A stretch of DNA of 64,000 nucleotides from an uncultured virus (IMG/VR IMGVR_UViG_3300034072_000228) (lineage: Duplodnaviria > Heunggongvirae > Uroviricota > Caudoviricetes), in the IMG/VR virus record IMGVR_UViG_3300034072_000228; one strand, 5' to 3'. Below are positions 128 to 53,750 of this stretch, piece by piece. The notes under the pieces are model-generated. The model was given only the letters and a program-made list of their open reading frames with translations. It ran no database searches and was not told the origin of the DNA. The translations under genes were made by a program, and so were the position numbers. Numbering within the stretch: the stretch's first letter is position 1; each line of letters begins with the position of its first letter.

Positions 128-336
128 CCAATGCCTGAGTCAAAGCGTTCCATAAGTTTTTCAAGATCCTGCCTAACTTCTGCGCGAGTGATGTGATCAC
201 GGGCAATTTCCTCCCGAGTTCTGTTCAATAGGATCTGGATGCGCTTCTGTTCATCTGAAGCTTGTTTAAGCATGAACATTACCAGGCCCACTAAGAACGA
301 TGTGATTAGATTCCAGACCAGAGCACCCGTTTCCAT
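85..336 (-). CDS. Small phage protein with N-terminal transmembrane helix and coiled coil
   Basis: Hydrophobic N-terminus (ALVWNLITSFLVGLVMFML); a diverged allele at 63784-64000 keeps the reading frame. Confidence 0.8.
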   Translation of the reverse strand: METGALVWNLITSFLVGLVMFMLKQASDEQKRIQILLNRTREEIARDHITRAEVRQDLEKLMERFDSGIGRLEAKIDALSERK

Positions 337-12263: not shown

Positions 12264-12333
12264 GAGCATAGCCCATCGCCCGGCGTGCCGGGTTTTGGGG
12301 TGTGCTTTTGCACCATAACCAGAGAGAACCAAT

Positions 12334-12534
12334 ATGAAACGATTGATACACCGCTTAGCCCTGCGCTTTGCACCCTTCACAGTGCGCGTGCTTGGCTCAG
12401 ACCGCACTTATACCCACAAGGCGCACACCTACGCCGATGCACTCTCATGGGCCCAGCAATATCCGGCCGACTGGGGTCGCGTTATTATCTCCGGCCGCTT
12501 TGGTCGCACCATGGCAGAACGGGGGCAAGCATGA
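12334..12534 (+). CDS. Early hypothetical protein
   Basis: GAGAG RBS; ATGA-coupled to the next ORF. Confidence 0.65.
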   Translation: MKRLIHRLALRFAPFTVRVLGSDRTYTHKAHTYADALSWAQQYPADWGRVIISGRFGRTMAERGQA

Positions 12535-13365: not shown

Positions 13366-13531
13366 TCATGCGCCCTATCCCTTTGTGGCAATTCAACCCC
13401 ATCACGGGCTACTGGAAACTGGCTCGCATGTGCGACCCAGCCACAGCGCACCAATGGCTGGCAATTTATCAGCGCGACCATGGCGCCAACTTTATCGAAC
13501 TAACCCACATCAAACCAAAGAGAGCACCAAA

Positions 13532-13696
13532 ATGAACGATTACATCGCACAAGGCTTTAAAAACCGCCGCGACTATCTCGAAGCACTGGCCGAGGAATAC
13601 GACCGCGACAAGGTTTTTATGCTGGCCGCCATGCTTGGCCCTTCCGAGGATTTCGACGGGCTAGTTACCGCCCTTGAGGATGACTCGGACTACTGA
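13532..13696 (+). CDS. Early small acidic phage protein
   Basis: GAGAG RBS; GF.NRRDYL..LAEEY..LA.MLGPSEDFDGLVTALED. Confidence 0.7.
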   Translation: MNDYIAQGFKNRRDYLEALAEEYDRDKVFMLAAMLGPSEDFDGLVTALEDDSDY

Positions 13697-13764
13697 GGTT
13701 TTGACTTTGAGCACTTCGAGGAGTGCTCAGGGGCGCAACTTCACGCCGACAACCGGAGAGAACC

Positions 13765-14208
13765 ATGGAACAACGCAAACAGCAAATAATCGACAGCCTT
13801 TATCGCTGGATCAAACAACGCCCCGGCCTTGAATACGGGAATTACGGCGACCCGACAGCCTACCGCTCAGAAATGCGCGACATCACCAAAGACTTACACC
13901 ACGCCCGCGAAATGCTTGCCTACATTAGCCGCCGGCCTAGCATCACAGCCGACGATTTAATCGAGGCGACCTTCCGCGCTTACAGTGCTCGACTAAGCAT
14001 CCATGAAGGCATCGAACGCGCTGAGGTCGACTACTGCACGGGCCAATACTGGCCCACTGAATATCGCCGCGCTACTTGCGCCGTGCTTGCCTCGGCTATA
14101 TGGCACAAATTCGCTGAGGATATGACCCAACCAGTAACCGGCGACACCATACGCAAGACCGCACGCCGTGAGCTTTCCCGATCTGTCGCGGCCCGGTGGT
14201 TTCGATGA
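13765..14208 (+). CDS. Early hypothetical protein
   Basis: GGAGAG RBS; QRPGLEYGNYG..DYCTGQYWPTEYR. Confidence 0.7.
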   Translation: MEQRKQQIIDSLYRWIKQRPGLEYGNYGDPTAYRSEMRDITKDLHHAREMLAYISRRPSITADDLIEATFRAYSARLSIHEGIERAEVDYCTGQYWPTEYRRATCAVLASAIWHKFAEDMTQPVTGDTIRKTARRELSRSVAARWFR

Positions 14209-14498
14209 ACGCTCGCCCCTTTTTTACTTTCGCCACCCGCGACGAGCCCGAAAGGGCTTTCTTTCGCTTAGTCGACGAGTATCGAGCACGCCACCCGGCC
14301 GGGCTAAGTGGCACGATAGCCGAGAAAAACAGCTTCGAAGTGTTCACGCCACCCAAGACCACTCACCCGCTTTTATTTGCTGCGCAGATGGTCAGCCGTA
14401 GGGATAGACGCATAGCCGACCCATACGGCCCCGCCGGCATGGTTTTATGTGAAGGCGATTTATTGTTTTATGGGCTTGCGATACACTCGCCCGGATGA
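14205..14498 (+). CDS. Early hypothetical protein
   Basis: ATGA coupling to both neighbours. Confidence 0.5.
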   Translation: MNARPFFTFATRDEPERAFFRLVDEYRARHPAGLSGTIAEKNSFEVFTPPKTTHPLLFAAQMVSRRDRRIADPYGPAGMVLCEGDLLFYGLAIHSPG

Positions 14499-14695
14499 AC
14501 CCTTACATCGAGATGAATGAAGGCATGGCCGAGATTCTAGCGGCCTTGCCTGAGCAATTCCAGCATCCCGGAACCGCCGCCGCCGCACTGGCTGCGGCTT
14601 TTGTCGTTCACTGTCGCGCATGGGGTATTGACGACGACACCGCGCAAACGCTTATCAGTGCAGCCCTAGCCGATTACACACTCACGAAGCATTGA
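14495..14695 (+). CDS. Early hypothetical protein
   Basis: ATGA coupling; ends overlapping the convergent primase gene. Confidence 0.5.
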   Translation: MNPYIEMNEGMAEILAALPEQFQHPGTAAAALAAAFVVHCRAWGIDDDTAQTLISAALADYTLTKH

Positions 14696-15448
14696 CCGCA
14701 CCGCACCAAGACCTGATCGCATATGCAAATCATTTGCATCCTCCCCAAGATTTGGACTCATGCACCACAACAAACCGCTCGCCTTCGCCACCCGTTGACC
14801 AGTGCCGCTCTCGTCATGATCCGCCACGATACGCCCGCCCGTAATCTTCGCCACATGCGCCAGATTACCCGCGCTGAAGCACACCACCACCCGCACGTCA
14901 GAAAACCGCAGCGCCGCCTGTACACTTAGCCCGGTAGCATAGCCCTCGACTAGCCACGGATCCCGGCCTCGACCAAGCACGAACACCGCGCCTTTCGCAC
15001 GCGTACCTGGTATGAAGCGCTTTTCACCACTGACTTGGATTCTCTGGGCGCCTACCACCCGCTGCGTGTTTATGTCCCGCATAGGTACGATCAGCTCTTC
15101 ACCAATCACTAGCCCCTTGGCGTCAGGAAATCCCTTGGCTTTTAGATAGGGATGCGTGGCCATGGTCGCCTTATTGATCAGCTCCTGCGCTTGCTTGGCT
15201 GCCCGTGCGTGCTTGATACGCTCTTCACTATCGTCAAAGTATTTGATGAACTGACTGACCTTCTCACCATACCGTGCAAACGATTCCATGGTTGCCCAGT
15301 TCTTCACCACTCCTGAGTTGCCATCAAAGATGTAAGCGCCATTCCTCTTACGTGGCTTATCTACCGTGGGTACGCGATGCCACCGGCCATCAGGTATGGC
15401 ATGGTTGATGATCAGACCATGGGCCTGTGCGTGTGCAACAAAGCTCAT
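14666..15448 (-). CDS. TOPRIM-domain DNA primase-like protein
   Basis: DGRWHRVPT..NGAY, HPYL..KG, LVEGYATGLS, VV.FSAGNL, ADHD.SG.G, DANDL. Confidence 0.85.
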   Translation of the reverse strand: MSFVAHAQAHGLIINHAIPDGRWHRVPTVDKPRKRNGAYIFDGNSGVVKNWATMESFARYGEKVSQFIKYFDDSEERIKHARAAKQAQELINKATMATHPYLKAKGFPDAKGLVIGEELIVPMRDINTQRVVGAQRIQVSGEKRFIPGTRAKGAVFVLGRGRDPWLVEGYATGLSVQAALRFSDVRVVVCFSAGNLAHVAKITGGRIVADHDESGTGQRVAKASGLLWCMSPNLGEDANDLHMRSGLGAVRSMLRECVIG

Positions 15449-15813
15449 GTGTTCTTCTCCTTCAAGGCTTGTTCAATAACTCGGGCAAACTTTTCTTCCG
15501 GCCCCCAGCAACTGTTAAACCCAATCTCCCGATCAATAATTTCTGATACTTCTTCATCCGTCAGCCCAACCCATTCTTTCTTTTGTGGTGCGGTGTACAG
15601 GGGTGACCGACCTTCGCCAGCAGATTTGTAAATGGTTCCACACCCTACTGCATCGAAATGCTCACGCACCTCATCAATCTTTACCCAACCCTCTACTGCG
15701 GTCCAATACTCAAACGGTTCTGTCTCCAGTGCTTGGCAGCAGTGCCCACACCGTGGACATTCAAAATCCAAATAGGACTTGTCCTTCTGGTACATGTTGT
15801 GATCCCCGCTCAT
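15445..15813 (-). CDS. Modular small phage protein with EWVGLTDEE module
   Basis: PLYT.PQ..WVGLTDEE..FAR.IE..LKEKNT; shares its C-terminal module with 20977-21261. Confidence 0.7.
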   Translation of the reverse strand: MSGDHNMYQKDKSYLDFECPRCGHCCQALETEPFEYWTAVEGWVKIDEVREHFDAVGCGTIYKSAGEGRSPLYTAPQKKEWVGLTDEEVSEIIDREIGFNSCWGPEEKFARVIEQALKEKNT

Positions 15814-15986
15814 ACCTTCCCCCCAAGTAATAACCTCAATGAATCCATGACCCAGTACTTCGGGCCCGTCGTTATCCCCGCGGCGATGCGCCAGATCGAT
15901 GACTGCGTTACACCAATCGACTTAGCAATCTGGTGATGCGTCATGCCCCTGGCCTCCAGAGCCCTCACAATTTCCTGTGGCGTCAT
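15810..15986 (-). CDS. Cro/XRE-like helix-turn-helix protein (58 aa, not in the ORF track)
   Basis: Manual translation MTPQEIVRALEARGMTHHQIAKSIGVTQSSIWRIAAG...GGKV; ATGA overlaps at both ends. Confidence 0.75.
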   Translation of the reverse strand: MTPQEIVRALEARGMTHHQIAKSIGVTQSSIWRIAAGITTGPKYWVMDSLRLLLGGKV

Positions 15987-17506
15987 ACCATCCTCCTTGC
16001 AAACTTACTCTTTGCATACTTGATGACCTGCTGCTTGATCTTGTTCTGCGTCACCATCCTGGGCTCCACATGAATAGCCTCGTGGAACTTCCACTTAGGC
16101 CAATCCCCCGTCAAATTCTTGTACTGAGCCTTGGCAAATCGCTCAGCCGCCGCAAGATCCCCGCGCTTTCTGTCCTTGCTGATCTGCACAATCTCCCACC
16201 AAACCAGCCGCTTGTCCGCCATCCAATCAGATGACTTTGTGCCGCCAAACTCCACCATCTGACCCTGCACCGAAAGCACATTGCTCATGGCCCTGCGCTC
16301 TGATCCACACGATGGACACACCCGGCCGCGGAACATGTACCCACAAGCCGTGCACTTGATCTCTGCCTTCTCCTTCTCAGTCGGCTCCTTGCGTACCTTG
16401 GCATCCAGCTTTCCGTCTTCCAGTTCCTGTACACCATGGGCAAATACTTCTACCTGATCCTCCCAGAACCGAGTCAGATTGCCTGCGTGATCTAACCAAA
16501 CCGCAAAGTCCTTTCCCGGATGCGGGCGCATGACCCTGCCCATCTGCTGAATATGGCCTGATAATGATTTTCTATATGGCCTTGCACATACACCGATTTT
16601 AATATCTGTAACATCAAATCCTTTTGCTAATGCTTCACAAGATATTAATCCGATTATCTCGCTGTCTGGTTTTCTGAACTCATCGATTAATTCCCTTCGC
16701 CGTTCGTTATTACCATCCTTATAACTGATCTGCTGAAAGTTATAACCCCTCTGTGCAAACTCTCTGCATAATTCCTCACCGTGTGCAACGGTTGCACTAA
16801 ATACAATGGTTTTAACTGGGCCGCCAAAGTTTTTATTCGTTGCTTGTACCCACTCGGTAACAATATCGCCAACGATCTCAACTCCTTGTTTTTCCATGTC
16901 TTTTTCTGCCCACTCGCCATCGAACTTAACCGCGGCGCCGCGCATATCCATCTCTGACTTCGCTACAAACATTTTAACTGGCACTAACCAACCGTCATTA
17001 ATTAGTTTATCGGTTGTTGTGCTGTTTACTACGTTGCTGAATATCTTTGATAATCCCTTGGTAAATGGCGTAGCAGTTAATCCAACAACAACAGCTTGCG
17101 GGTATTTATTAATAGCATCCGCTACAGATTTAAATACCGTATGGCATTCATCTATAACAATTAGTTTAGGCTCATTATCTATTTTGCGACGCGCTAATGT
17201 TTGTGCTGATATAACCTGCACATATTCATACGGACGCCAACGCCAGTGATCTGCCTGAATGACGCCGTGTGGTACGCCATACCTATCCAGTGTTGTGCTG
17301 GTCTGGTCTACCAGTGATACGCGATCGCATATGAACCAAGCTACATTCTGCTTGGCCCTTGCTTCGTTCAGTAGGTAGCTGGCAGATACAGTCTTGCCTG
17401 CACCCGTGGGCGCCACCAGGATCTGCGATCGATGCCCTTTGCGGACACCATCACGCAGTTCATCCAGTGCTTTGATTTGGTAGTCACGCAGACTTTCGAT
17501 CAGCAT
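15983..17506 (-). CDS. Superfamily 2 DExH helicase with zinc finger (RadD/YejH-like)
   Basis: LRDYQ, APTGAGKT, IDECH, GLTATP, QQMGRVMR, CxxC..CxxC. Confidence 0.9.
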   Translation of the reverse strand: MLIESLRDYQIKALDELRDGVRKGHRSQILVAPTGAGKTVSASYLLNEARAKQNVAWFICDRVSLVDQTSTTLDRYGVPHGVIQADHWRWRPYEYVQVISAQTLARRKIDNEPKLIVIDECHTVFKSVADAINKYPQAVVVGLTATPFTKGLSKIFSNVVNSTTTDKLINDGWLVPVKMFVAKSEMDMRGAAVKFDGEWAEKDMEKQGVEIVGDIVTEWVQATNKNFGGPVKTIVFSATVAHGEELCREFAQRGYNFQQISYKDGNNERRRELIDEFRKPDSEIIGLISCEALAKGFDVTDIKIGVCARPYRKSLSGHIQQMGRVMRPHPGKDFAVWLDHAGNLTRFWEDQVEVFAHGVQELEDGKLDAKVRKEPTEKEKAEIKCTACGYMFRGRVCPSCGSERRAMSNVLSVQGQMVEFGGTKSSDWMADKRLVWWEIVQISKDRKRGDLAAAERFAKAQYKNLTGDWPKWKFHEAIHVEPRMVTQNKIKQQVIKYAKSKFARRMV

Positions 17507-18302
17507 GTTTCTTCCAGTAAAGAACTTGTTTCTTCAGCTCGGCACACTCCCGCTGCCACTTGTCTCGGGCCTCGGTAAGGTTGTCGATCGTGGACTGCAT
17601 CTCTTTCATAACCTGGTAGTGCTCGGTATCCCTGAGTGCTGTAAGGATGGACACTTCCTTGGCCAGCTCTTGGTAGTTATCAAGGATCTCTTGGTACTGC
17701 TCGTTTAGTTCGTCATAAGCCACGCGCAGGGCTTCGTGTTTGTCTTGTGACACAGCTGACTTCAGGACCGGTTTAACGGGCGCTGGCGGCACGTTCTCTG
17801 GTTCCTCCTTGTCTACTGCCTTGATAGCCTCACGAAGGCTCATAGCCCCTTTCTTGACCTTCTCTATCACTTCCTTGTCGCCGGACTGCACAACCTTCTT
17901 GGCCCGCTCTACCGACCGCTCACCCACCCCGGCACGCTTAGCCATCTCTTTGGAAGTAATTCCGCCCATGGGCGGAATTTGATACTTTCGTAGGGGGGTA
18001 CCCACACCTGTCCATGTACTGCAAGTGACCACGGCCATGGCTTTTTGTGCTGGCGATAAGTGTCTTCGGTGCAGGTTCAGGTCCATGACATAGGACACAG
18101 GGTCTTGGCCATCAAACTCATGGAAGGATGGATTGATGTCTAGTTGTAAGCAAGCTTTGAATCGATGCCAGCCGTCCAAAATCTTGTTCTCGTACGTCGT
18201 TATAGGTTCACGCTGCCCATGGGCTTTGATGGATTCCAATAGGTCTTGGAAGTCCTCATCGGGCATGTCAGGGAATGCTGCTGATAACTGGTGTCTTTCC
18301 AT
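17484..18302 (-). CDS. parB: ParB-like protein (ParB N-domain, helix-turn-helix, coiled coil)
   Basis: L.ESIK.HGQ.EPI..ILDGWHR..AC..NL.RRHLS..Q; HTH KEMAKRAGVGERSVERAK. Confidence 0.85.
   Translation of the reverse strand: MERHQLSAAFPDMPDEDFQDLLESIKAHGQREPITTYENKILDGWHRFKACLQLDINPSFHEFDGQDPVSYVMDLNLHRRHLSPAQKAMAVVTCSTWTGVGTPLRKYQIPPMGGITSKEMAKRAGVGERSVERAKKVVQSGDKEVIEKVKKGAMSLREAIKAVDKEEPENVPPAPVKPVLKSAVSQDKHEALRVAYDELNEQYQEILDNYQELAKEVSILTALRDTEHYQVMKEMQSTIDNLTEARDKWQRECAELKKQVLYWKKHADRKSA
17956..17998 (+). repeat. Dispersed 43-bp element, copy 2
   Basis: GT-AATTCCGCCCATGGGCGGAATT-TGATACTTTCGTAGGGGGG inside the parB-like gene. Confidence 0.9.
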
Positions 18303-18322
18303 ATTTCTCTCTTAGTTGTTAA

Positions 18323-19296
18323 CGATCGATTACTTTGGTGCTCTTTGCTACTTTGACTCACTCTCATGCCATGGCTCTCTTCTTACTGGTGGTTCGTTCG
18401 GGTGAAATGGCTCTCTCGTGCCTAATGACTCACTCACTTGGGTTGGTGCTATCGGGGTACATGGTTCGTTCCGCTTCTTTGGTGCTCTCTTGCGTTTTTG
18501 ACTCACTCTGAAATCATGGTGCTCTCGCGATCTCTGGTTCGTTCTCTACTCGTGGTTCACTTTGGTCTTATGACTCACTCTCTTTCGGTGGATCTCTCAC
18601 AAACTGTGGTTCGTTCTGGCAGATTGGTTCCCTCTCTTTTTCTGACTCGCTCGGCCGAATTGGTGCTCTTGGCCAACTTGGCTCACTTCCCTTCCTTGGT
18701 CCTCTCGGGGTTAGTGGTTCGTTCCGTTTTTTTGGTGCTCTCGTTGCCGCTGACTCACTTGCCTTTATTGGTTCTCTCGCGGGGAATGGTTCGTTCTCGA
18801 CCTTTGGTCCTCTCTTTCTGAATGACTCGTTCTCGTGATTTGGTTCTCTTGATCGACATGACTCACTCTATCAACAGTAAAACTTTTAGTGGTCTTGGTT
18901 CGTTAAATAGTTATGGTGCTCTCACATCCAATGACTCACTCACTAACTTTGGTTCTCTTCCCGTTGTTGGTTCGTTCGTTGAAGTTGGTTCTCTCGACAT
19001 GCTTGACTCGTTCCACGACGATGGTGCGCTTAGCTCATGTGACTCGTTTGCCTGGGATGGTTCTCTCCTGTGTGCTGACTCGTTCGATTTCCTCGGTTCT
19101 CTCGATGCTCGTGACTCGTTCGAGCGAATTGGTTCTCTCGATCTTTTTGACTCGTTCATCTCATTAGGTGCTCTTCACAAAAATGACTCGTTCGAAATCA
19201 TTGGTTCTCTCAAGCGCCTTGACTCGTTCCTTCTGTATGGTTCTCTCAGCTACGGTGACTCACTCAGTCCATTTGGTTCTCTCCAAGTTCGCGGTT
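18323..19296 (-). ncRNA. TIGR-like (tandem interspaced guide RNA) array of 27 units of 36 nt
   Basis: 18-nt periodicity of two alternating ~10-nt repeats (sense GAGAG(A/C)ACCA and GAACGAGTCA/GAGTGAGTCA/GAACGAACCA) separated by variable 8-9-nt spacers; 974 bp = 27x36+2; begins at the stop codon of a Nop-domain gene. Confidence 0.9.
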
Positions 19297-20089
19297 AAAC
19301 AGGTGATGGTATGAAATGAGCATGGCCCAAGTGTGCAATCGGGTAAGGCAATGGCGGCTTCGTACCAAAGTGAGCTTCATACCAAGCGCCATGGAGATGG
19401 CTAAGGAAGAGCTTCACCGCATACCTTCTTGCTCGTGCATCAATCTGACCTGGTGGCAAGACACCATTGGATAGGTGCTTGTAAGCCTCAGTCGTCTTGG
19501 CTACTTTCTCTTTGAGTGTGGCTGCCAGCTCCTTGTTATCGCCACGCTCATTACGTTCAATCTCAAAGTTCTTACGCCCCCGGTATACATGACCATAGTA
19601 GCAGTCATCACGGCCAGAGAATTTCATAAAGGATTGACCAGCCTTCCAGCAAAGCGTCTTCAGCCCTGCATTCCATGGGCGCTTCTGTCCCTTCTCCCAT
19701 TTGCTTGTGGGATCTAATCCAGCATAGCGCCAAATATGTCCAACAGTAGGAGCCTTCTCAATATCAATGTGCGCTAACAGCCCCGCGGAAATGACCGGGC
19801 CGATGCCGACAATCTCACGCATCCATGCGCCCATCATGTGGTTCTGTGTGTAAACATCTAACGCCTTCTTGATCTGCCCTTCCAGCCCTTCTGATTGGGC
19901 CGCCAGCCAGCCGATCACAGCGTTAGGCTCATGCGATTCGTCCAGCGCCCGGACTTGGTTCGTGGAACGCTTACGGTCTTCTTGGGCGATGTAGTAGTAA
20001 TCGACCAGAAATCTTGCCTCGTCATCAGACAGGTTCGTGGCTGCGACTTTAAGGTCCTTGGTCAGTTTCATGATTGGTTCTAGGTTCAT
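19295..20089 (-). CDS. tasA: TasA-like Nop-domain RNA-binding protein (IS110 C-terminal-like, no RuvC or HNH domain)
   Basis: N-terminal coiled coil, IVGIGPVISAGLLAHI..HIWRYAGLDP, PWN..LKT, ARRYAVKLFL; no DEDD domain; abuts the dual-repeat array. Confidence 0.85.
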   Translation of the reverse strand: MNLEPIMKLTKDLKVAATNLSDDEARFLVDYYYIAQEDRKRSTNQVRALDESHEPNAVIGWLAAQSEGLEGQIKKALDVYTQNHMMGAWMREIVGIGPVISAGLLAHIDIEKAPTVGHIWRYAGLDPTSKWEKGQKRPWNAGLKTLCWKAGQSFMKFSGRDDCYYGHVYRGRKNFEIERNERGDNKELAATLKEKVAKTTEAYKHLSNGVLPPGQIDARARRYAVKLFLSHLHGAWYEAHFGTKPPLPYPIAHLGHAHFIPSPV

Positions 20090-20325
20090 AGTGTTCTCGC
20101 TAGGTTGAATGGATCGTGCCAACTAAATTCTTTATAGGTGTAAAGCAACTGGTTAAATCTCATGGGATGCTTGGTTGCTACAACACATCCCAGCCCTACT
20201 AAAACTCTCATACGCTCTGCCGCTGTGGTTCTGCTCACGCCAAAGTGTTTTGCTACTTGCTCCGATGTAAAAGGTTCTTTTTGTTCCTTGGCCCATGCTA
20301 GATATGTCTCATCGATTGGTTTCAC
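20086..20325 (-). CDS. Winged-helix/HTH protein
   Basis: GTG start with GGAG RBS; FTSEQVAKHFGVSRTTAAERMRVL. Confidence 0.65.
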   Translation of the reverse strand: MKPIDETYLAWAKEQKEPFTSEQVAKHFGVSRTTAAERMRVLVGLGCVVATKHPMRFNQLLYTYKEFSWHDPFNLARTL

Positions 20326-20560
20326 TGTCTCCCCTTGCTCGTATGGCTTCAGCGCACATCGCTGCAAGCCCCTTTGTGTAATACTTTTGAAAAACTTCTT
20401 GCCGTTCCTCGCACACCTTCGCACACGCCTCACGCTCATGTGCTGCAACAAGTGCGGCGAAGCGTTCAAACACAGGGGCAAGATCACGCTCAACCCATGT
20501 CATATGGTCAAACATTGCACCAGCCTCTCTCGCCATCTTGATAATGTCGTCTCGGTTCAT
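20309..20560 (-). CDS. Small phage protein, IIKMAREA/HEREACAK paralog 1
   Basis: Shares modules with 20557-20787 and 21258-21464. Confidence 0.75.
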   Translation of the reverse strand: MNRDDIIKMAREAGAMFDHMTWVERDLAPVFERFAALVAAHEREACAKVCEERQEVFQKYYTKGLAAMCAEAIRARGDSETNR

Positions 20561-20787
20561 TGCTCACTCCTTGCTCTGATGGCTTGCGCCTCCATATCAC
20601 GCACTAAGTCCATAAGCTCGTTAGCACCATTTTTTCTTGATTCAATCAGCTTTGCACACGCCTCACGCTCATGTGCTGCGACAAGTGCGGCGAAGCGTTC
20701 AAACGATTCAAGGTTTGCGCCCATGTATGAGACTGGGTTAAAACCAGCCTCTCGCGCCATCTTGATAATGTCGTCTTTATCCAACAT
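20557..20787 (-). CDS. Small phage protein, IIKMAREA/HEREACAK paralog 2
   Basis: GGGGAG RBS before MLDKDDIIKMAREAG. Confidence 0.75.
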   Translation of the reverse strand: MLDKDDIIKMAREAGFNPVSYMGANLESFERFAALVAAHEREACAKLIESRKNGANELMDLVRDMEAQAIRARSEQ

Positions 20788-20980
20788 TCTTCCCCTCCGG
20801 CTCGTGCGTACATGCGTTTTCGTAGTCAATAACGTCCTGCAACCGATAGCGAATCAATCCACCCAACTTCATGTACCGAACCCCTTTTTTGAAAGACCGG
20901 TCACGTTCCAGTGTTGCTTCGCTGATCTTCCATCGGGTAGCAAGCTCCACTTGCGTTATGAATTGGTCCGATGCGGTCAT
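20777..20980 (-). CDS. Excisionase/AlpA-like HTH DNA-binding protein
   Basis: TQVELATRWKISEATLERDR..YMKLGGLIRYRLQDV..YE. Confidence 0.75.
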   Translation of the reverse strand: MTASDQFITQVELATRWKISEATLERDRSFKKGVRYMKLGGLIRYRLQDVIDYENACTHEPEGKNVG

Positions 20981-21261
20981 GTGTTTTTCTCCTTCAGTTT
21001 GGCTTCGATGGCTTTTCCGATGTCTTGAGCGTCGTTTATTGATGCTTCCCCCATTTCATCGCAGTATTTGTTCCAGATGTCGTCAATCTCGTCCTCCGTC
21101 AGCCCAACCCATTCTCGCTTCTCTGCCTCTGCGATGGCTTCACGCAATGCCTTAATTGTTTTATCTACGTCAATGTTTTCTTCAAGCATCCAAAGCTTTT
21201 GATCCAAAGGCTCAAAAGAATCCAGCACCTCCAATGCCTGCCTCATTGCTTCTATACTCAT
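20977..21261 (-). CDS. Modular small phage protein with EWVGLTEDE module
   Basis: MSIEAMRQALE..EWVGLTEDEI..AIEAKLKEKNT. Confidence 0.7.
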   Translation of the reverse strand: MSIEAMRQALEVLDSFEPLDQKLWMLEENIDVDKTIKALREAIAEAEKREWVGLTEDEIDDIWNKYCDEMGEASINDAQDIGKAIEAKLKEKNT

Positions 21262-21464
21262 TGCTCACCCCTTGCTCTGATGGCGACCGCTATTTCGCGG
21301 TAGTCATACGCCCATACCTCACCGTCAAACAACTTCGCACATGCCTCACGTTCATGCTCGGCAACAAGGGCGGCGAAGCGTATTACAGAGCCCAATGGAT
21401 TTTCGTCAGACCCGTAAACTAGTTGAGCCTCTCTCGCCATCTTGATAATGTCTTCTTTGTTCAT
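21258..21464 (-). CDS. Small phage protein, IIKMAREA/HEREACAK paralog 3
   Basis: MNKEDIIKMAREA..FAALVAEHEREACAK..AIRARG. Confidence 0.75.
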   Translation of the reverse strand: MNKEDIIKMAREAQLVYGSDENPLGSVIRFAALVAEHEREACAKLFDGEVWAYDYREIAVAIRARGEQ

Positions 21465-22108: not shown

Positions 22109-22312
22109 TTAGACCTTTCCCCGGCCACCCTCGCCGGGGTTTTTTTTGAGCCACATACTGAATGCTTGTGTATCAGCGAGTAGCTTCATGGACCTGATCT
22201 GCAACTCCAGGGCCGTTCGCTCTGCCACCTCATGCCGGATCTGTAACTTCACTGACTGGGGTATTGATTCGATCATGTCGTTCACGATCGCCTTGCGTAT
22301 ACGTGGATCCAT
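22109..22312 (-). CDS. Hypothetical protein
   Basis: 67-aa ORF with GAGG RBS. Confidence 0.5.
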   Translation of the reverse strand: MDPRIRKAIVNDMIESIPQSVKLQIRHEVAERTALELQIRSMKLLADTQAFSMWLKKNPGEGGRGKV

Positions 22313-22697
22313 GGGTCATCCTCATTGTTGCTATTGCTACCTCAAACGATACCTGCATCCAATCATTCTCATCAAATGGCCCTTGGCCGCCCCACACCAC
22401 CAGAAACACACTGATCGGTAAATACACATCCCAGTACCTCGCATGATTCCTTCGATGGAATAGGATCGGCATCAGCCCATCCTTCCATGCACTGGTAAGA
22501 GCCTGCCGCTGCCATGCACGCCAGTCGGGATTCTCGGCTCGCTTCACTTCCACCGCCCAACCCCATACTTTCATATCATAACCACCCGCCGCGGCTTGGT
22601 CATAATTCAGTTTGACTTGGAAATCCAATGCCTGCGAAATCAGTTTGGCTACTTCCAACTCCCCGCGCCGGCCCTTCTGTCTGCTATTGATTGCCAT
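22230..22697 (-). CDS. PD-(D/E)XK Holliday-junction resolvase-like nuclease
   Basis: NSRQKGRRGELE..YD....AVEVKR..W..QA..P....RRN; AGGAGG RBS. Confidence 0.8.
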   Translation of the reverse strand: MAINSRQKGRRGELEVAKLISQALDFQVKLNYDQAAAGGYDMKVWGWAVEVKRAENPDWRAWQRQALTSAWKDGLMPILFHRRNHARYWDVYLPISVFLVVWGGQGPFDENDWMQVSFEVAIATMRMTHGSTYTQGDRERHDRINTPVSEVTDPA

Positions 22698-22720
22698 TGG
22701 TCGGATACCTCCTATGTATA

Positions 22721-22750
22721 TTGCCATATATTGTGAACATAGGTTACCAT
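22721..22750 (+). promoter_or_regulatory. Possible sigma70 promoter for the recombination block
   Basis: TTGCCA-18 nt-TACCAT in an AT-rich divergent intergenic region. Confidence 0.4.
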
Positions 22751-23872: not shown

Positions 23873-24015
23873 ACCATGAGCGATGGTTATACGAAGCCAT
23901 CCTCGCGGCAGAGGACGTTATGTTCTGGATTCACCGTTACCTTGAGGCGCCTAACCCAGAAGTACTACAGCTTTTACAGGCGGCTATGGAAAAGTTTGAA
24001 GAGAGTAAGCCATGA
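23869..24015 (+). CDS. Small hypothetical protein (48 aa, not in the ORF track)
   Basis: MNHERWLYEAIL...; ATGA overlaps at both ends. Confidence 0.55.
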   Translation: MNHERWLYEAILAAEDVMFWIHRYLEAPNPEVLQLLQAAMEKFEESKP

Positions 24016-24881
24016 ACATCACCAATAAATACAACCTGCCCGACGTTCTCATGCGGTTTGCTCGCAATAAGAACTACTCCAAGGGCGATGCCAAGCTATC
24101 TGTCACTGAGCTTATCGACAGCCCACGGGTCGTGGCACTCAAGCACAAGCACTTTGATGAGATGGAACAGGACGTATCCGATACCGTGTTCAGTCTATTC
24201 GGTACGGCTGTCCATCACATCCTTGAGAAGTTCTCAGAACAAGATGTCATCACTGAGCAGCGGTACTTCAAGGAGATTAATGGCTGGAAGATCTCTGGTG
24301 CAATCGACCGCCAGGTTGTCACGCCCCATGGACGGATCATCGAGGACTGGAAAGTTACGAGCAGTTTTGCAGTCATGCAAGGTAAGATTGAATGGGAGCA
24401 CCAGCTTAACTGCTACGCCTATCTTGCCCGTGCCCATGGTCACAATGTCGTCGGTCTAAAGATCAATGCCATCGTTAGGGACTGGGCTCGCAGGAACGTA
24501 GGCCGCCAAGCAGATTACCCAGAAGCACCGATCGTACAGATTGATGTACCCCTGTGGACCTACGAAGAACAGTCGGCTTTTATCAAGAGCCGCATCGCAC
24601 TTCATGCCGCCACAATCATGGACGATCCGCCACTGTGTACACCCGATGAGCGATGGGCTAAGCCTGAAACATGGGCCATCATGAAACCAGGGGCCAAGCG
24701 AGCGCTGAAAGTATTTCTGCTTGAGCAAGAAGCAAAAGATGCAGTAAAGCCAGGACAGGAGATCGTTCACCGCCCCGGCGCTAATACAAGATGTACAAGT
24801 TTTTGTGATGTTAAACAGTACTGTGATTTTGGTAGACAACTAGGAGAAGCAAGTGAAGCAGATAGCATCAGCGCTAGTTAA
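24012..24881 (+). CDS. PD-(D/E)XK RecB/Cas4-like exonuclease
   Basis: GTAVH.ILE, ISG.ID, IEDWKVTS, QLNCY, C-terminal C..FC.V..YC. Confidence 0.85.
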   Translation: MNITNKYNLPDVLMRFARNKNYSKGDAKLSVTELIDSPRVVALKHKHFDEMEQDVSDTVFSLFGTAVHHILEKFSEQDVITEQRYFKEINGWKISGAIDRQVVTPHGRIIEDWKVTSSFAVMQGKIEWEHQLNCYAYLARAHGHNVVGLKINAIVRDWARRNVGRQADYPEAPIVQIDVPLWTYEEQSAFIKSRIALHAATIMDDPPLCTPDERWAKPETWAIMKPGAKRALKVFLLEQEAKDAVKPGQEIVHRPGANTRCTSFCDVKQYCDFGRQLGEASEADSISAS

Positions 24882-27560: not shown

Positions 27561-27843
27561 AAAAGCTGATAAAGCGCACATGGATCGCGTCGCAAGTATT
27601 GGGTGCATCCTGTGCAAACACCTAGACCTTGGAGCGACCCCTGCTCAGATCCACCACATCCGGGAAGGCCAAGGTATGAGCCAGAGGGCTAGCAACTTTC
27701 TGGTGGTTCCTTTGTGCCCAACCCACCATACCGGAAGCCCTGGCGTCCATGGCCTTGGCGAGAGAGGGTTCTATACCCGCTATAAGCTTAGCGAGTTAGA
27801 CCTTCTTGCCATGACCTTGGAAGTACTTCAATCCTCTAAGTAA
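27553..27843 (+). CDS. Ref/DUF968-like HNH-type nuclease
   Basis: GCILC..AQIHH...G.G..PLCPTHH. Confidence 0.75.
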   Translation: MTKKADKAHMDRVASIGCILCKHLDLGATPAQIHHIREGQGMSQRASNFLVVPLCPTHHTGSPGVHGLGERGFYTRYKLSELDLLAMTLEVLQSSK

Positions 27844-30800
27844 ACTGTCTTCTCAAGCAACTCAGGGCGCTTGGCGCTAACAATAATCCCTTTCTCAGCA
27901 CGCTCTGACATCCGCTCACGTTGAGCAAACGAACGCTTGATCTTCTTTTCATCAATTTCATTACCAGGATTCTTGCTGCTGTATCGGATGATCTGCTCAC
28001 CAATATCATCCATCTCTTCATAGTCACCGCTCTTGTAAGCTAAGAACAGTTTTGACAGGAGCCTTTGCTCACGCTGAGCCAGTTGCTTATCAAGACTCTT
28101 AATCTCGCCCATGGCCTCGTAGCCACGCTGAAGATCCTGTGGCGTAAAGCCAAGTGACTGAGCAAAGACTCCCCACAACCCTACGTTTGGTACGATTGGA
28201 TCGCCACGCAAGGTTGTCGCACCCTCATGGTAGAACCTCCAGGCTTTGAAGAAGTCCTTCACAACAGGTGGTGACATCTCTTCCATACCTCTTGCGTAGT
28301 GACCTTCATTGATCTTCTTGATGCCACCAGCCACGTTAAGAACAATGCCTGCCGCCGGCCCAAGCATGTCGATCAGCATATTCTTGGCCCACTCCTCCTC
28401 ATCCTTAGCCATGGCGTCATCACGGAACCAGAGTCCATTGAGGTTAGCAAACCTGCTTACATCAACTTGTAAGATCTCTGACATTGGTCCTTTACTCAGC
28501 GCCCGTGACACGTTGTCACCAAACGCATTTGCCATAGCAACCTTTAGTTCTAGGCTGAAGTCATAAGGATCGTCTTCATCATCAAAGATAAGGTTCATAA
28601 CGCCTTCAATGATGTAGTAAAACGGCAGACCTTCATAACCTGCAAAGAGCGCTGTCATGCCCATAACACCAGTCAGACGCTTCCTTGCAGCTTTCTTGAT
28701 CCTTGTTAGTTCATCGTACTCACGCTTGGCAGCATATCGTTCATCCTCTGATAGACCTTTGTCTTGCGACTTCAGTAGCAGTGCATTCAACTCACGCGTA
28801 TTGGGGAGAGAATCCTTAATTGCCTGTGCGATGAAGGCTGTCATCTGCTGCGCGTAGTTCTTGAACTGTAGCGTTACCTGTGCAATCGGATGACGTAAGA
28901 ACCTAGCCTTAGTTTCTTTTGCATACTCAAAATGAATCTGGCGAATCATTTCTCTTGCGAGCTGTATCGTCTGGGCTTTATTCATCCCCTTGGATTGAGC
29001 AAGCCTAACCACTGCAAGTGCTGTAACTTGGCGGTTTGCAATTTCTGCCAGATTAAATCCATAACCAAGAATCATGGACGCCTTGTCAAGGACGCCCAAC
29101 GACTTTGACTTAAGGATGCTCTTAAAGCCGGTCGCATATAAACCACTCGGGCGTTCAGCTAAACCAGCCAAGGAAAGCGTTTGAGTCTGATTTGTCAGGC
29201 CTTCAAGCTCTGACATGATTTCGGCTTCTTCCTTAAGCTTTGCAGATCCACTCGCCTTGGCTTGTTTTTCTAACATGCCTATCAGGTCATACTGCGCCGT
29301 GCCTTTTTTCCTCGATGACTTTAAATCTGAAAAGGCTTTGAAGATTTCCTTGCTTGCCCTTGCAAACGAAACATCAAACTCACCTGCAAGTGTTGGTATC
29401 CCAATGACCGGCGTTTGGATTAAGTTACCAAGAGCAGAAGCAGGAGCGGTCAAGTAATACAAAAACGCAAAGTTTGTAATCTTTGACCAAACTGGGTGCA
29501 CATCCTTTGGATTGCTGAAGTCAGAATGCTGTGCCTTCAACTCCTGCAAGTAACGGTCACGGGCAATATTCCTTACACCCTTTTGTGAATCAGAGTACCG
29601 CTGCGCCTCACTGATGATGGCATCTAGCGTGGGGCCATACTCCATTCTTGCTAGGTTGTACGCACTATGGAATGCTGAATCAGCAAATGCACGGCGCATA
29701 TCAAGCGTAGCACCGGCAACCTTCTTGGCGTGAATAAAGTTCTTCTGTACAGACAACTCAGGAAGCATGGACAGGTAAGCCTGATACACATCATCCTTAA
29801 GCCTGTTCTTCAAATCCATCGCCCGGCCAGCGGAGTCTGAAAGCGTTGGCTGATCAGTCTTATCGATGGCAGCAAAGATCTTATTGATGAAGGCAGACTT
29901 GATGACGCCCTCGGTGAAAAGCTCTTTGGTATCTACACCACTCTTGAGGTTGATGATCTTGCCGCTTGCTACATCCTTGGCAATACTTTCCTCATGCTTG
30001 CGAAGGTCGGCCAAGGATTCAAACATCTCTTGGTACGGTTTCGTCCCGCCATTAGGTAGTTTGATGTTGTAAGCAATAAAGTACTGACCAAACCTGCTAA
30101 GAGGAAAATACGGACCTTCGCTTTCAAACTTCTGGAACTCATAGTCCAACTCACGCAAACTCTTGGCGCGTTCATTAACGTCCGTGATCTTGGTGGTGAT
30201 GATCCTCTTAAGAATCTCCCTCTTATCATTAAGCTGTTTCTTGTAGAAATCACGAAGCTCCTTGAAGATCGTTTCGCCTTCCGTGCCCTTGATCATCTCC
30301 CAGTTCTTACGGAAAGATTCACTCTTGATCTTTGCTTCTTTCTCAGGAATCGTTGGGTCAATGCCTGACATACGGGCGTCTAGGATTACCTTATCTAACG
30401 CTTCACCCAGCTTAGGATTTTTGTCAGCCCACTGGTCCCACTTCTCACGAAGCTTGCTTGCGGTGGTCAGTTTTTTATCCCTCTCTACCATCATCTGGTT
30501 TAGCACATCGTAATACTGACGTACCTGCGGCAGGTCTTTCTTGGCTAGCTCTGCAATCTGTCTGAGGTTCAGGAACTGCAATAACGTCTGAGCGTTATCT
30601 GCCGTCGCATCCTTAACGTATTGACCAAGCTTTTCCTTGGCAGCCGCAAAGGACGGCGTGTCCTTGATCATCGTATCCATGGACTTCATGCCTTCAGCAG
30701 GCGTGTCATCAATCTTGTCTACGGCGTTGAATAGATCTTGCTGCTCTTGTGGAGATAGATCCTTACCGGCGTCAGTTAATCCTTCAACGCTACGGCGCAT

Positions 30801-53501: not shown

Positions 53502-53750
53502 TTACCTCTTAGCTGTCAGCGCCGACTTGCGAAATGCTTCTGCCGTGGGCGCACCTTTAGCACCAGGCTTTCTCATTTTCTCACCCGATCCTGCCGCAAT
53601 ACGCTTACGCTTGGCATTAATATTGGCGTATAACCCGACCTCGCCGCCCTGCGCAAACTGCATAAAGTCGGTGTTATCACGTCGGGATTTTAATTTGGCC
53701 TTGGGCATTTTGGAAGGGTTGATATCCCCCATTCCCCTGCTTTTCATCAT
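53502..53750 (-). CDS. Small basic virion-region protein
   Basis: SRGMG.I.PSK..FAQGG..GLYANI.AKR.R..GSGEKMRK.G.KGAP. Confidence 0.7.
   Translation of the reverse strand: MMKSRGMGDINPSKMPKAKLKSRRDNTDFMQFAQGGEVGLYANINAKRKRIAAGSGEKMRKPGAKGAPTAEAFRKSALTAKR

What the first reader, a model, noticed from the sequence alone, without database searches (positions are those of the whole stretch)
14666..20089. TasA-like gene and guide array coupled to a ParB-like gene inside the replication operon
Seen in sequence: the order tasA > array > parB-like > SF2 helicase > Cro-like HTH > small ORF > TOPRIM primase lies on one strand. Only 20 nt separate the array end from the parB ATG, downstream genes overlap, and I see no terminator. 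Inference: a nuclease-free RNA-guided DNA binder could recruit the ParB-like protein (possible RNA-guided partitioning, tethering or silencing of competing genomes). Guide processing would also cut the polycistronic mRNA just upstream of the replication genes. No ParA or integrase was recognised in the genome.
Basis: partly seen in the sequence, partly recalled or inferred. Interest (0 to 1): 0.82.

Follow-up and report, generated by a model that had tools for sequence, protein, structure and literature searches.

The report
Phage TIGR-TasA cassette beside ParB replication genes
A phage carries a nuclease-free RNA-guided DNA-binding system (TasA with 26 guide units) directly in front of its ParB-helicase-primase replication genes; this pairing is already published, and here the two parts look separable rather than partnered.

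Summary
On the minus strand lie tasA (20089..19295), a 26-unit dual-repeat TIGR array (19283..18336), a ParB-like gene (18302..17484), an SF2 helicase, a small HTH gene, a small ORF and a Toprim primase. The downstream genes overlap and no terminator was found. TasA matches solved TasR/TasH by sequence and fold and keeps the Tyr/His guide-processing motif. The ParB-like protein has the ParB fold and the GxxRxxA motif.

The pairing is not new. Faure et al. 2025 (Science) describe tasA operons with a parB-like gene, "tasParB". Their Table S1 lists a protein identical to this TasA from Met12.

- ParB-helicase-primase occurs without tasA in many relatives, including a syntenic one, a 95%-complete record and cultured Acidovorax phage AP1.
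- tasA plus array occurs without ParB in 26 of 28 TasA clusters, and in 8 loci of this TasA's own cluster at 80% identity or more.

No guide targets were found in the phage or in 1.9 Mb of sampled phage DNA.

Best reading: an accessory TIGR-TasA cassette sits upstream of a native replication module and is co-transcribed with it. Real coupling remains possible, at about 0.2.

The parts
20086..20493 (-). 135-aa HTH protein directly upstream of tasA. Its stop overlaps the tasA ATG as ATGA.
   Evidence: ORF. Weak HTH_11/HTH_20 Pfam hits and PHROG transcriptional regulator hits. Homologues precede tasA in L001-L007.
19295..20089 (-). tasA: a nuclease-free Nop-domain TIGR-associated protein, 264 aa from the ATG at 20089. 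The ORF extends to a TTG at 20122, giving 275 aa.
   Evidence: Sequence hits to solved TasR 9mty (E 1.4e-11) and TasH 21kl (E 2.4e-9). AF2 model pLDDT 86.7, and its 10 best PDB matches are all TasH/TasR. PHROG 4285 at 4e-50. Pfam finds only Transposase_20. Y260 and H267 are conserved and match the SpTasH Y289/H296 motif.
18336..19283 (-). Dual-repeat TIGR array: 27 edge and 26 loop repeats of 10 nt and 52 spacers of 8 nt (two of 9 nt), making 26 units of 36 nt in three sub-arrays set off by 1-nt shifts.
18300..18335 (-). Array-to-parB junction. It looks like a decayed terminal unit whose edge-like GAGAGAAAT serves as the ribosome-binding site context of parB. It is conserved in all tasA-linked relatives.
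   Evidence: comparing the 80 nt upstream of parB in 11 tasA-linked and 12 tasA-less loci.
17484..18302 (-). ParB-like protein, 272 aa: N-terminal ParB/Srx domain with DGWHRFKA (GxxRxxA), an HTH, and a long C-terminal coiled coil.
   Evidence: PHROG ParB-like families. D43, G44, R47 and A50 are invariant in 27 sequences. AF2 model pLDDT 79.4, with top matches Spo0J, ParB, Noc and KorB.
15983..17506 (-). SF2 (ResIII/DEAD-like) DNA helicase, 507 aa. Its start overlaps parB by 23 nt.
   Evidence: Pfam ResIII 1e-21 and Helicase_C. PHROG 16 DNA helicase 1.6e-71.
15810..15986 (-). 58-aa HTH (Cro/Xre-like) protein.
   Evidence: 100% identical in L001-L007.
15445..15813 (-). 122-aa ORF of unknown function. 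This slot is variable among relatives.
14666..15448 (-). Toprim-domain DNA primase, 260 aa.
   Evidence: Pfam Toprim_3. PHROG 2249 DNA primase 1.7e-32.

Best explanation
Two separable modules lie side by side in one early operon of a phage of about 64 kb that has no integrase.

(1) tasA and its 26-unit dual-repeat TIGR array form a self-contained TIGR-TasA system. The array is transcribed. A TasA dimer cuts the transcript inside each edge repeat with its C-terminal Tyr260/His267 pair and keeps 36-nt tigRNAs. Each tigRNA pairs its two 8-nt spacers with opposite strands of a 16-bp DNA site. With no nuclease domain, the complex binds and blocks DNA. The likely use is repression or exclusion of other DNA in the infected cell. 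The targets are unknown.

(2) The ParB-like gene is the first gene of the phage's own ParB-helicase-primase replication module. It is not a dedicated TasA partner.

In this lineage the cassette sits directly upstream of parB. The replication genes are therefore probably read from the same transcript, and guide processing would leave a parB mRNA that begins about 38 nt before its ATG.

Shown here: homology, folds, array anatomy, motif conservation and synteny. Inferred: transcription, processing, DNA binding, repression and the RNA-level consequence for parB.
For: TasA identity:
- Sequence hits to solved TasR and TasH.
- All 10 best fold matches are TasH/TasR.
- No nuclease domain is found.
- The Tyr/His pair has the same 7-residue spacing and LGH context as SpTasH Y289/H296.

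Array: 36-nt units with alternating 10-nt repeats. This matches the published TIGR definition, read as passages of PMC12045711.

Published function. FpTasA binds 36-nt RNAs (passages of PMC12045711). TasA represses transcription (abstract and passages of bioRxiv 10.64898/2026.09.09.750476).

ParB belongs to the replication module:
- Of the 69 loci fetched with the helicase, 19 have a ParB homologue directly upstream of the helicase with no tasA or TIGR-like array in the up to 6 kb held on either side of the helicase: L050, L052-L059, L061, L062, L066-L071, L077, L079, L081 and L085.
- L050 is syntenic with the window on both sides. It goes from the homologues of window genes 22109-22727 straight to parB, about 0.5 kb in place of 3.8 kb.
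- Record G006, 95% complete, has no TasA, while four positive controls matched.
- Cultured Acidovorax phage AP1 has overlapping ParB-like, helicase and primase genes. It is not among the 3 of 50,697 phage records that match TasA.

The cassette is mobile:
- 57 non-redundant TasA loci fall into 28 clusters at 80% identity or more.
- A ParB neighbour is seen in 2 clusters.
- The window's own cluster holds 10 ParB-linked loci, 8 ParB-less loci and 1 truncated locus.
- Record G008 (100% complete, terminal repeats) has TasA and an array but no ParB_N match.
- ParB proteins with and without a tasA neighbour share one architecture with no added domain.

Operon: overlapping genes, no terminator, and a conserved 33-nt junction.

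Guide turnover: only 9 of 47 parsed spacers are shared with L001, whose TasA and ParB are 98% identical. This fits guides aimed at changing outside targets.
Against: - Faure et al. 2025 state that tasParB is consistently found in operons with tasA and that the operon is conserved while the flanks vary. I could not read their fig. S14, so a wider recurrence than I saw is possible.
- A second lineage, L140-L142 (TasA 70% identical), also has a ParB-helicase-primase module next to tasA, but divergently oriented.
- My survey covers the 80 best of 424 TasA-like stretches in one viral collection. It looked at no more than 2 upstream and 3 downstream neighbours, plus any ORFs lying between tasA and its arrays.
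- Many records are fragments.
- No target was found, so the blocking function is unproven for this system.
- Repression was shown for stem-loop-type TasA, not for a dual-repeat TasA.
- Co-transcription rests on the absence of signals in a simple scan.
Confidence: 0.65

Rival explanations
1. True functional coupling, the reader's idea and the open reading of tasParB. The TasA-tigRNA complex marks 16-bp sites and recruits or loads the CTP-switch ParB-like clamp there. ParB then spreads and silences, tethers or partitions the target DNA, or hands it to the helicase and primase.
For: - A published tasA-tasParB operon association (passages of PMC12045711).
- The tasA-array-parB order and the 33-nt junction are conserved in every tasA-linked relative that reaches that far: L001, L002 and L004-L011, 10 of 10.
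- A second lineage has a ParB module beside tasA (L140-L142).
- ParB keeps the GxxRxxA motif and the ParB/Noc/KorB fold.
- No ParA is present, so classical partition is unlikely.
Against: - Each partner occurs without the other, even at 84-87% TasA identity and in near-complete genomes.
- ParB is translationally coupled to the helicase both in this window (23-nt overlap) and in tasA-less phage AP1 (4-nt overlap).
- No lineage-specific domain appears in either protein.
- In L140-L142 the two genes are on opposite strands.
- All co-oriented cases belong to one phage lineage, so they count as one event.
Confidence: 0.2
2. RNA-level coupling only. The array acts as a processing switch for the replication genes. 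TasA cleavage at the last edge repeat separates and stabilises or destabilises the parB-helicase-primase mRNA, so TasA level tunes replication timing. Guide function is secondary.
For: - No terminator or promoter-like site lies between the array and parB.
- The junction is only 33 nt and is conserved.
- The Tyr/His processing motif is kept.
- The decayed terminal edge repeat supplies the parB ribosome-binding context.
Against: - Relatives express the same module without any array.
- A 26-unit array whose spacers turn over quickly is not needed for one cleavage site.
- The same cassette sits before unrelated genes elsewhere.
Confidence: 0.08
3. Self-directed guides. The tigRNAs target the phage's own genome, for example its origin or promoters, to regulate its own replication or transcription.
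For: TasA proteins can repress transcription (bioRxiv 10.64898/2026.09.09.750476). The cassette sits in the early or replication region.
Against: - In the window outside the array, no composite site matches exactly and only 2 match with one mismatch, one in a two-strand geometry and one in a same-strand control.
- At up to 3 mismatches the two-strand geometries give 26 and 37 sites. The same-strand controls give 28 and 51, and wrongly paired spacers give similar numbers.
- Spacer content differs greatly between near-identical phages.
Confidence: 0.04
4. The repeat region is not a guide array. It would instead be a coding repeat, a CRISPR array or an iteron set.
For: The 36-nt period equals 12 codons, and mechanical ORFs of 82-158 aa run through the region on both strands.
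Against: - Two 1-nt register shifts break every frame.
- Two alternating 10-nt repeats with 8-nt spacers do not fit CRISPR.
- The region lies 11 nt after a Tas gene and is present after 18 of 23 TasA homologues with the same repeat motif.
- A protein identical to this TasA from Met12, and its close relatives, are in the published Tas protein table.
Confidence: 0.01

Closest known systems
Dual-repeat TIGR-TasA systems with tasParB (Faure et al. 2025, Science, PMC12045711)
   Same: A solo Nop-domain TasA. An adjacent array of alternating edge and loop repeats of 10 nt in 36-nt units. A parB-like gene in the same operon with the array between the two genes. Close relatives of this TasA, and a protein identical to it from Met12, are in the paper's Table S1.
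   Different: Nothing in kind. Added here: this ParB heads a ParB-helicase-primase module that exists without TasA, and this TasA cassette exists without ParB. The word 'helicase' does not occur in the paper's main text. Its fig. S14 could not be read.
SpTasH (Salicola phage CGphi29) and TaTasR, the solved TIGR nucleases (PDB 9w03, 9w04, 21kl, 9mty)
   Same: The Nop domain and coiled coil match, with Foldseek E of 2e-6 to 8e-5. The C-terminal Tyr/His processing motif is kept.
   Different: This protein has no HNH or RuvC domain, so it can bind DNA but not cut it. Its spacers are 8 nt, against the usual 9 nt.
TasA and dead-TasR transcriptional repressors (Xu et al. 2026, bioRxiv 10.64898/2026.09.09.750476)
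   Same: A nuclease-free Tas protein that binds DNA through its guide RNA and represses transcription. This is the most likely mode of action here.
   Different: Those tested proteins use stem-loop arrays and lack the Tyr/His loop. This system is a dual-repeat type and keeps it.
ParB-helicase-primase module of Acidovorax phage AP1 (OM049504.1) and IMG/VR relatives
   Same: A ParB-like protein of about 270 aa, then an overlapping SF2 helicase, then a primase, in an early operon. AP1 identities to the window are 30% for ParB and 39% for the helicase.
   Different: AP1 and many relatives have no tasA and no array upstream.
CTP-dependent ParB-family clamps (ParB/Spo0J, Noc, KorB)
   Same: The N-terminal ParB fold, the GxxRxxA motif and an HTH.
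   Different: No ParA and no identified parS. The C-terminal part is a long coiled coil. The gene context is replication, not partition.
Nuclease-free CRISPR interference (type IV and type V-M), named as an analogy in Faure et al. 2025
   Same: An RNA-guided DNA binder without cleavage, carried by a mobile element and thought to act against competitors.
   Different: An unrelated protein fold, dual 8-nt spacers that read both DNA strands, and no PAM.

Membership tests
TIGR-Tas, subtype TasA, dual-repeat | Nop-domain protein homologous to characterised Tas proteins | tested here: met
   phmmer against PDB: TasR 9mty E 1.4e-11, TasH 21kl E 2.4e-9. The AF2 model's 10 best PDB matches are all TasH/TasR.
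TIGR-Tas, subtype TasA, dual-repeat | No N-terminal HNH or RuvC nuclease domain | tested here: met
   264-275 aa. Pfam finds only Transposase_20. The model is all-helical with no extra domain. The alignment to TasH starts after its HNH part, with query residue 103 against TasH residue 145.
TIGR-Tas, subtype TasA, dual-repeat | Adjacent array of two alternating 8-12 nt repeats with short spacers, in units of about 36 nt | tested here: met
   27 edge and 26 loop repeats of 10 nt and 52 spacers of 8-9 nt, starting 11 nt after the tasA stop.
TIGR-Tas, subtype TasA, dual-repeat | C-terminal Tyr/His pair for guide processing | tested here: met
   H267 is invariant and Y260 is at 90% or more in 50 sequences. 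The spacing and LGH context match SpTasH Y289/H296. This is a motif match only; activity was not tested.
TIGR-Tas, subtype TasA, dual-repeat | Array transcribed and processed into 36-nt tigRNAs bound by the protein | not testable with these tools
   Only contigs from RNA libraries were available. They show neither ends nor strand.
TIGR-Tas, subtype TasA, dual-repeat | Guide-dependent binding of a DNA target | tested here: inconclusive
   No target was found above control geometries in the window, in 1.14 Mb of relatives, or for 1,646 pooled spacer pairs in 1.88 Mb. The host is unknown.
tasParB operon as a dedicated two-protein system | parB-like gene in one operon with tasA and the array | tested here: met
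tasParB operon as a dedicated two-protein system | The partners co-occur, so neither is commonly found without the other | tested here: not met
   ParB-helicase-primase occurs without tasA. tasA plus array occurs without ParB in 26 of 28 clusters and in 8 loci of the window's own cluster.
tasParB operon as a dedicated two-protein system | Physical TasA-ParB interaction | not testable with these tools
   It needs a pull-down or two-hybrid assay. See Tried and rejected for the prediction job.
ParB/Srx superfamily (CTP-switch ParB-like proteins) | N-terminal ParB fold with the GxxRxxA motif | tested here: met
   D43, G44, R47 and A50 are invariant in 27 sequences. Foldseek hits Spo0J, ParB, Noc and KorB at E 4e-5 to 1e-3. 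The Pfam ParB_N match in close relatives is below the cut-off, and this protein had no Pfam hit at E 0.01.
ParABS partition system | ParA ATPase partner and parS sites | tested here: not met
   No ParA-like family in the PHROGs scans of 59 of 63 window ORFs of 90 aa or more. parS sites were not searched.
CRISPR-Cas | One repeat of 23-50 nt with spacers of similar size, and cas genes | tested here: not met
   Two alternating 10-nt repeats with 8-nt spacers. No cas effector or adaptation gene was identified. The only Cas-related PHROG hits are secondary to exonuclease assignments, e.g. window 24012-24878.

The most novel reading that the evidence does not exclude
TasA-tigRNA complexes act as programmable stand-ins for parS. 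At each 16-bp guide-matched site they load the CTP-switch ParB-like clamp. The clamp then spreads and silences a competing phage or plasmid, or brings the phage's helicase and primase to chosen DNA. This would be RNA-guided ParB loading, a coupling of two DNA-targeting principles that has no described precedent.
Probability: 0.12. Interest if true: 0.85.

Novelty: already known. Interest (0 to 1): 0.3.

Why it matters
What nuclease-free TasA does in nature, and what its published link to ParB-like genes means, are still open. In the held library only the original paper mentions tasParB.

This window adds context that lowers the odds of a dedicated partnership. The ParB is the head gene of a ParB-helicase-primase replication module that lives on without TasA, and the TasA cassette moves between phage backbones without ParB.

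If the pairing did prove functional, it would be a new way to load a ParB clamp by RNA guide. If it does not, the locus remains a clean natural example of a long, fast-changing TasA guide array set in an early phage operon. That makes it useful for testing guide processing inside a polycistronic RNA.

Tried and rejected
- Complex prediction of TasA with ParB, one copy each with alignments A3 and A2. The verdict was 'no answer', score 0.00, and the controls were not run. This is no evidence either way.
- Self-target search of the 26 units in the window with four joining geometries and gaps of 0-2. Nothing above controls.
- The same search in 1.14 Mb of related loci. The one-mismatch hits were 5 in-unit and 11 cross-unit. 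Eight of the cross-unit hits are one conserved primase site found with wrongly paired spacers. About 16 would be expected by chance across both sets.
- Pooled search with 1,646 spacer pairs from all parsed arrays against 1.88 Mb. There were 10 exact hits in two-strand geometries for loop-centred pairs against 9 in same-strand controls, so no signal.
- Collection-wide target scans were not made. A 16-nt site is expected many times by chance in collections of that size, and the host is unknown.
- Tandem Repeats Finder saw only 2.3 units because the copies are under 70% alike. The array was parsed by hand-set register instead.
- blastn of the 7-kb region against 50,697 phage records gave one 156-nt match, so no close cultured relative exists there.
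- The supplementary files held as text contain no 'ParB'. The supplementary PDF with fig. S14 is too large to read.
- RNA libraries. Four runs of one study hold contigs 90-99% like parts of tasA, the array and parB. One 344-nt contig in X4 joins the parB start region to array units, skipping 278 nt of this window's array. These are contigs, DNA carry-over cannot be excluded, and no ends or strand are shown, so this is not used as evidence of transcription. Bins without cover are not interpreted.
- The coding-repeat and CRISPR readings of the array were rejected (see Rival explanations).

Full report
**What is there.**
All features of the finding lie on the minus strand. Read 5' to 3' they are:
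- a 135-aa HTH gene (20493..20086);
- tasA, whose ORF runs from a TTG at 20122. Homologues start at the position of the ATG at 20089. That ATG overlaps the upstream stop as ATGA;
- a repeat array (19283..18336);
- a ParB-like gene (18302..17484);
- an SF2 helicase (17506..15983, overlapping parB by 23 nt);
- a 58-aa HTH gene, a 122-aa ORF and a Toprim primase (15448..14666), each overlapping the previous gene by 4 nt.

Pfam and PHROGs support the helicase, HTH, primase and ParB-like calls. A simple scan found no minus-strand terminator-like site anywhere in 14400-21400. It found no promoter-like site between the array and parB.

**The array.**
- Set in register, the region holds 27 edge repeats (consensus GAGAGAACCA; the one at 18887 is degenerate) alternating with 26 loop repeats (GAACGAGTCA, GAGTGAGTCA or GAACGAACCA).
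- The repeats are separated by 52 spacers of 8 nt (two are 9 nt). That makes 26 units of 36 nt.
- Two 1-nt register shifts break every reading frame, so the mechanical ORFs through the region are artefacts.
- The edge motif occurs 22 times in the window, 19 of them in the array, against about 2 expected. The loop motif occurs 23 times, 22 of them in the array. None of 100 shuffles came near either count.
Those 33 nt look like one more, decayed unit whose edge-like GAGAGAAAT abuts the ATG.

**What the proteins are.**
- TasA matches the solved TasR (9mty, E 1.4e-11) and TasH (21kl, E 2.4e-9) by sequence.
- An AlphaFold2 model (pLDDT 86.7) has TasH or TasR as all ten best PDB matches, followed by IS110-family recombinases.
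- Pfam finds no nuclease domain.
- SpTasH processes its guides with Y289 and H296 (passages of PMC13421893). I checked that numbering on the phage's own gene.
- This TasA has Tyr260 and His267 with the same 7-residue spacing and the same Leu-Gly-His context. H267 is invariant and Y260 is at 90% or more in 50 relatives.
- The ParB-like protein has the GxxRxxA motif as DGWHRFKA. D43, G44, R47 and A50 are invariant in 27 sequences.
- Its model (pLDDT 79.4) shows a ParB N-domain, an HTH and a long C-terminal coiled coil. The best PDB matches are Spo0J, ParB, Noc and KorB.

**What is already in print.**
- Faure et al. 2025 (PMC12045711; I read passages of the main text and Methods) define TIGR arrays, TasA, TasR and TasH. 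[quoted passage not shown] Arrays lie upstream, downstream or between the two genes, and the authors modelled two TasA with two TasParB.
- Their Table S1 lists close relatives of this TasA and one protein identical to it from Met12.
- Xu et al. 2026 (bioRxiv 10.64898/2026.09.09.750476; abstract and passages) show that TasA and dead TasR repress transcription, and that the Tyr/His loop marks dual-repeat systems.
- Two searches of the held library, for 'tasParB' and for 'TIGR-Tas' with 'ParB', find only the Faure paper.
- The supplementary PDF with fig. S14 could not be read. I therefore cannot say which loci it shows or whether a helicase-primase context appears there. The word 'helicase' is absent from the main text.

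**Is ParB tied to TasA?**

Starting from TasA:
- 24 close viral loci were fetched.
- tasA-array-parB-helicase-primase is kept in L001, L002 and L004-L011. L003, L005 and L024 are cut at a contig end. All of these belong to one lineage with TasA at 83% identity or more.
- L012-L023 (51-87% identity) have tasA, and 18 of the 23 full loci have the same-motif array. None has a homologue of this ParB.

Starting from the helicase (69 loci):
- 19 loci have a ParB homologue directly upstream of the helicase with no tasA or TIGR-like array in the DNA held: L050, L052-L059, L061, L062, L066-L071, L077, L079, L081 and L085.
- L050 is syntenic with the window on both sides. It passes from the homologues of window genes 22109-22727 to parB within about 0.5 kb, where the window has 3.8 kb of small genes, tasA and the array.

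Whole-record searches with positive controls:
- The 95%-complete record G006 has ParB-helicase-primase and no TasA.
- The 100%-complete record G008, with terminal repeats, has TasA and an array but no ParB_N match.

Cultured phages. Acidovorax phage AP1 has overlapping ParB-like, helicase and primase genes after an Xre-type regulator. It is not among the only 3 of 50,697 phage records that match TasA.

Wider profile scan. It kept the 80 best of 424 TasA-like stretches.
- Removing identical proteins left 57 loci in 28 clusters at 80% identity or more.
- PHROGs scans of up to 2 upstream and 3 downstream neighbours, plus any ORFs between tasA and its arrays, covered 139 and 62 proteins. A local ParB profile was also run.
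- A ParB neighbour turned up only in the window's lineage (10 loci) and in L140-L142. In L140-L142 ParB-helicase-primase lies on the opposite strand, divergent from tasA.
- Inside the window's own cluster, 8 loci at 84-87% identity have the cassette followed by a DUF3310-type 'nucleotide kinase' gene and no ParB.
- Other contexts include terminase, RecE or exonuclease VIII, SSB, a DNA polymerase, a helicase without ParB (L156) and an integrase.
- ParB proteins with and without a tasA neighbour share one architecture.

What remains in favour of coupling is the published statement, the second (divergent) adjacency and the conserved junction.

**The guides.**
- Each unit should read a 16-bp site, with one spacer on each strand (passages of PMC12045711).
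- I tested both two-strand joining orders, both same-strand orders as controls, gaps of 0-2, and wrongly paired neighbouring spacers as a further control.
- No signal above controls appeared in the window, in 1.14 Mb of related loci, or for 1,646 spacer pairs from all parsed arrays against 1.88 Mb.
- The array changes much faster than its flanks. The window shares 9 of 47 parsed spacers with L001, whose TasA and ParB are 98% identical. The shared spacers lie in colinear blocks of 1 to 3, and some neighbouring spacers differ by single bases.
- This fits guides aimed at changing outside targets more than fixed self-regulation. The targets remain unknown.

**Phage context.**
- PHROGs scans covered 59 of 63 window ORFs of 90 aa or more: 54 and 5.
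- They show head, portal and terminase genes, an exonuclease with an Erf-type annealing protein, RusA, an endolysin, tail and ejection proteins, a 2,096-aa DarB-like protein and a 2,849-aa ORF.
- No integrase or ParA was hit. A ParB without ParA in such a phage argues against classical partition.

**Mechanism and odds.**
- Best reading, 0.65: a self-contained TIGR-TasA cassette makes 36-nt guides and binds DNA without cutting it. It sits upstream of the phage's own ParB-helicase-primase module in one early transcript. Guide processing at the last edge repeat would then set the 5' end of the parB mRNA about 38 nt before the ATG.
- Real TasA-ParB coupling: 0.2.
- RNA-level coupling alone: 0.08.
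- Self-targeting: 0.04.
- Not a guide array: 0.01.
- Shown: homology, folds, motifs, array anatomy and synteny. Inferred: transcription, processing, DNA binding, repression and any effect on parB.

**Verdict.**
The system and its ParB neighbour are already published, and this protein is already catalogued. Interest is 0.3.

Noticed in passing
window 18336-19283 compared with L001 5432-6455: Guide content turns over far faster than the flanking genes. Only 9 of 47 parsed spacers are shared with a relative whose TasA and ParB are 98% identical. The shared spacers lie in colinear blocks of 1-3, and some neighbouring spacers differ by single bases. One block (AGTTGGCC, ATTCGGCC, GAAAAAGA) recurs in at least five arrays (window, L002, L004, L005, L006), and its first two spacers also occur in L001.
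   Followed up: partly
window 12322-12336, 13520-13534, 13756-13767 (+ strand): The only three exact edge-repeat matches outside the array (GAGAGAACCA or GAGAGCACCA) each lie 0-4 nt before an ATG of a plus-strand ORF. They look like ribosome-binding contexts, and the parB ribosome-binding site is edge-like too. Three hits are within chance for the window (about 2 expected).
   Followed up: partly
window 20309-21464 (- strand): Tandem family of small paralogous genes (83, 90 and 68 aa, all with ...DIIKMAREAG...FAALVAAHEREACAK...) upstream of tasA, with 58-nt and 34-nt direct repeats at 95-97% identity. Homologues are scattered in many related loci. The whole block is missing in the syntenic relative L050.
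   Followed up: partly
L015 6001-6936; also L016-L018: TasA of this lineage (314-316 aa) carries an insertion of about 50 aa between the conserved SKW and EKG residues (window positions 140-145). The insert is absent from the other aligned TasA proteins and may be an extra small domain in a loop.
   Followed up: no
L140 1424-7010 (same in L141, L142): A second arrangement: primase, helicase and a ParB-like gene (phrog_1033, E 3.4e-18) on one strand, with tasA (70% identical) and an array of about 1.2 kb diverging from them on the other strand, followed by a Mom-like gene.
   Followed up: partly
window 27831-34118 and 53680-62226 (- strand): Two giant ORFs. One is a 2,096-aa protein with a DarB-like antirestriction match (E 9.5e-91). 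The other is a 2,849-aa protein with only faint HTH-type matches.
   Followed up: no
window 18868-18905 and 18489-18508: The array is three sub-arrays joined by a degenerate edge (AAAAGTTTTA at 18887) and by two 9-nt spacers, each of which shifts the register by 1 nt.
   Followed up: yes
window 17400-20200, runs X1-X4: Four aquatic metatranscriptome runs of one study hold contigs 90-99% like parts of tasA, the array and parB, with many joints inside the array. This points to co-occurring strains with different guide sets.
   Followed up: partly
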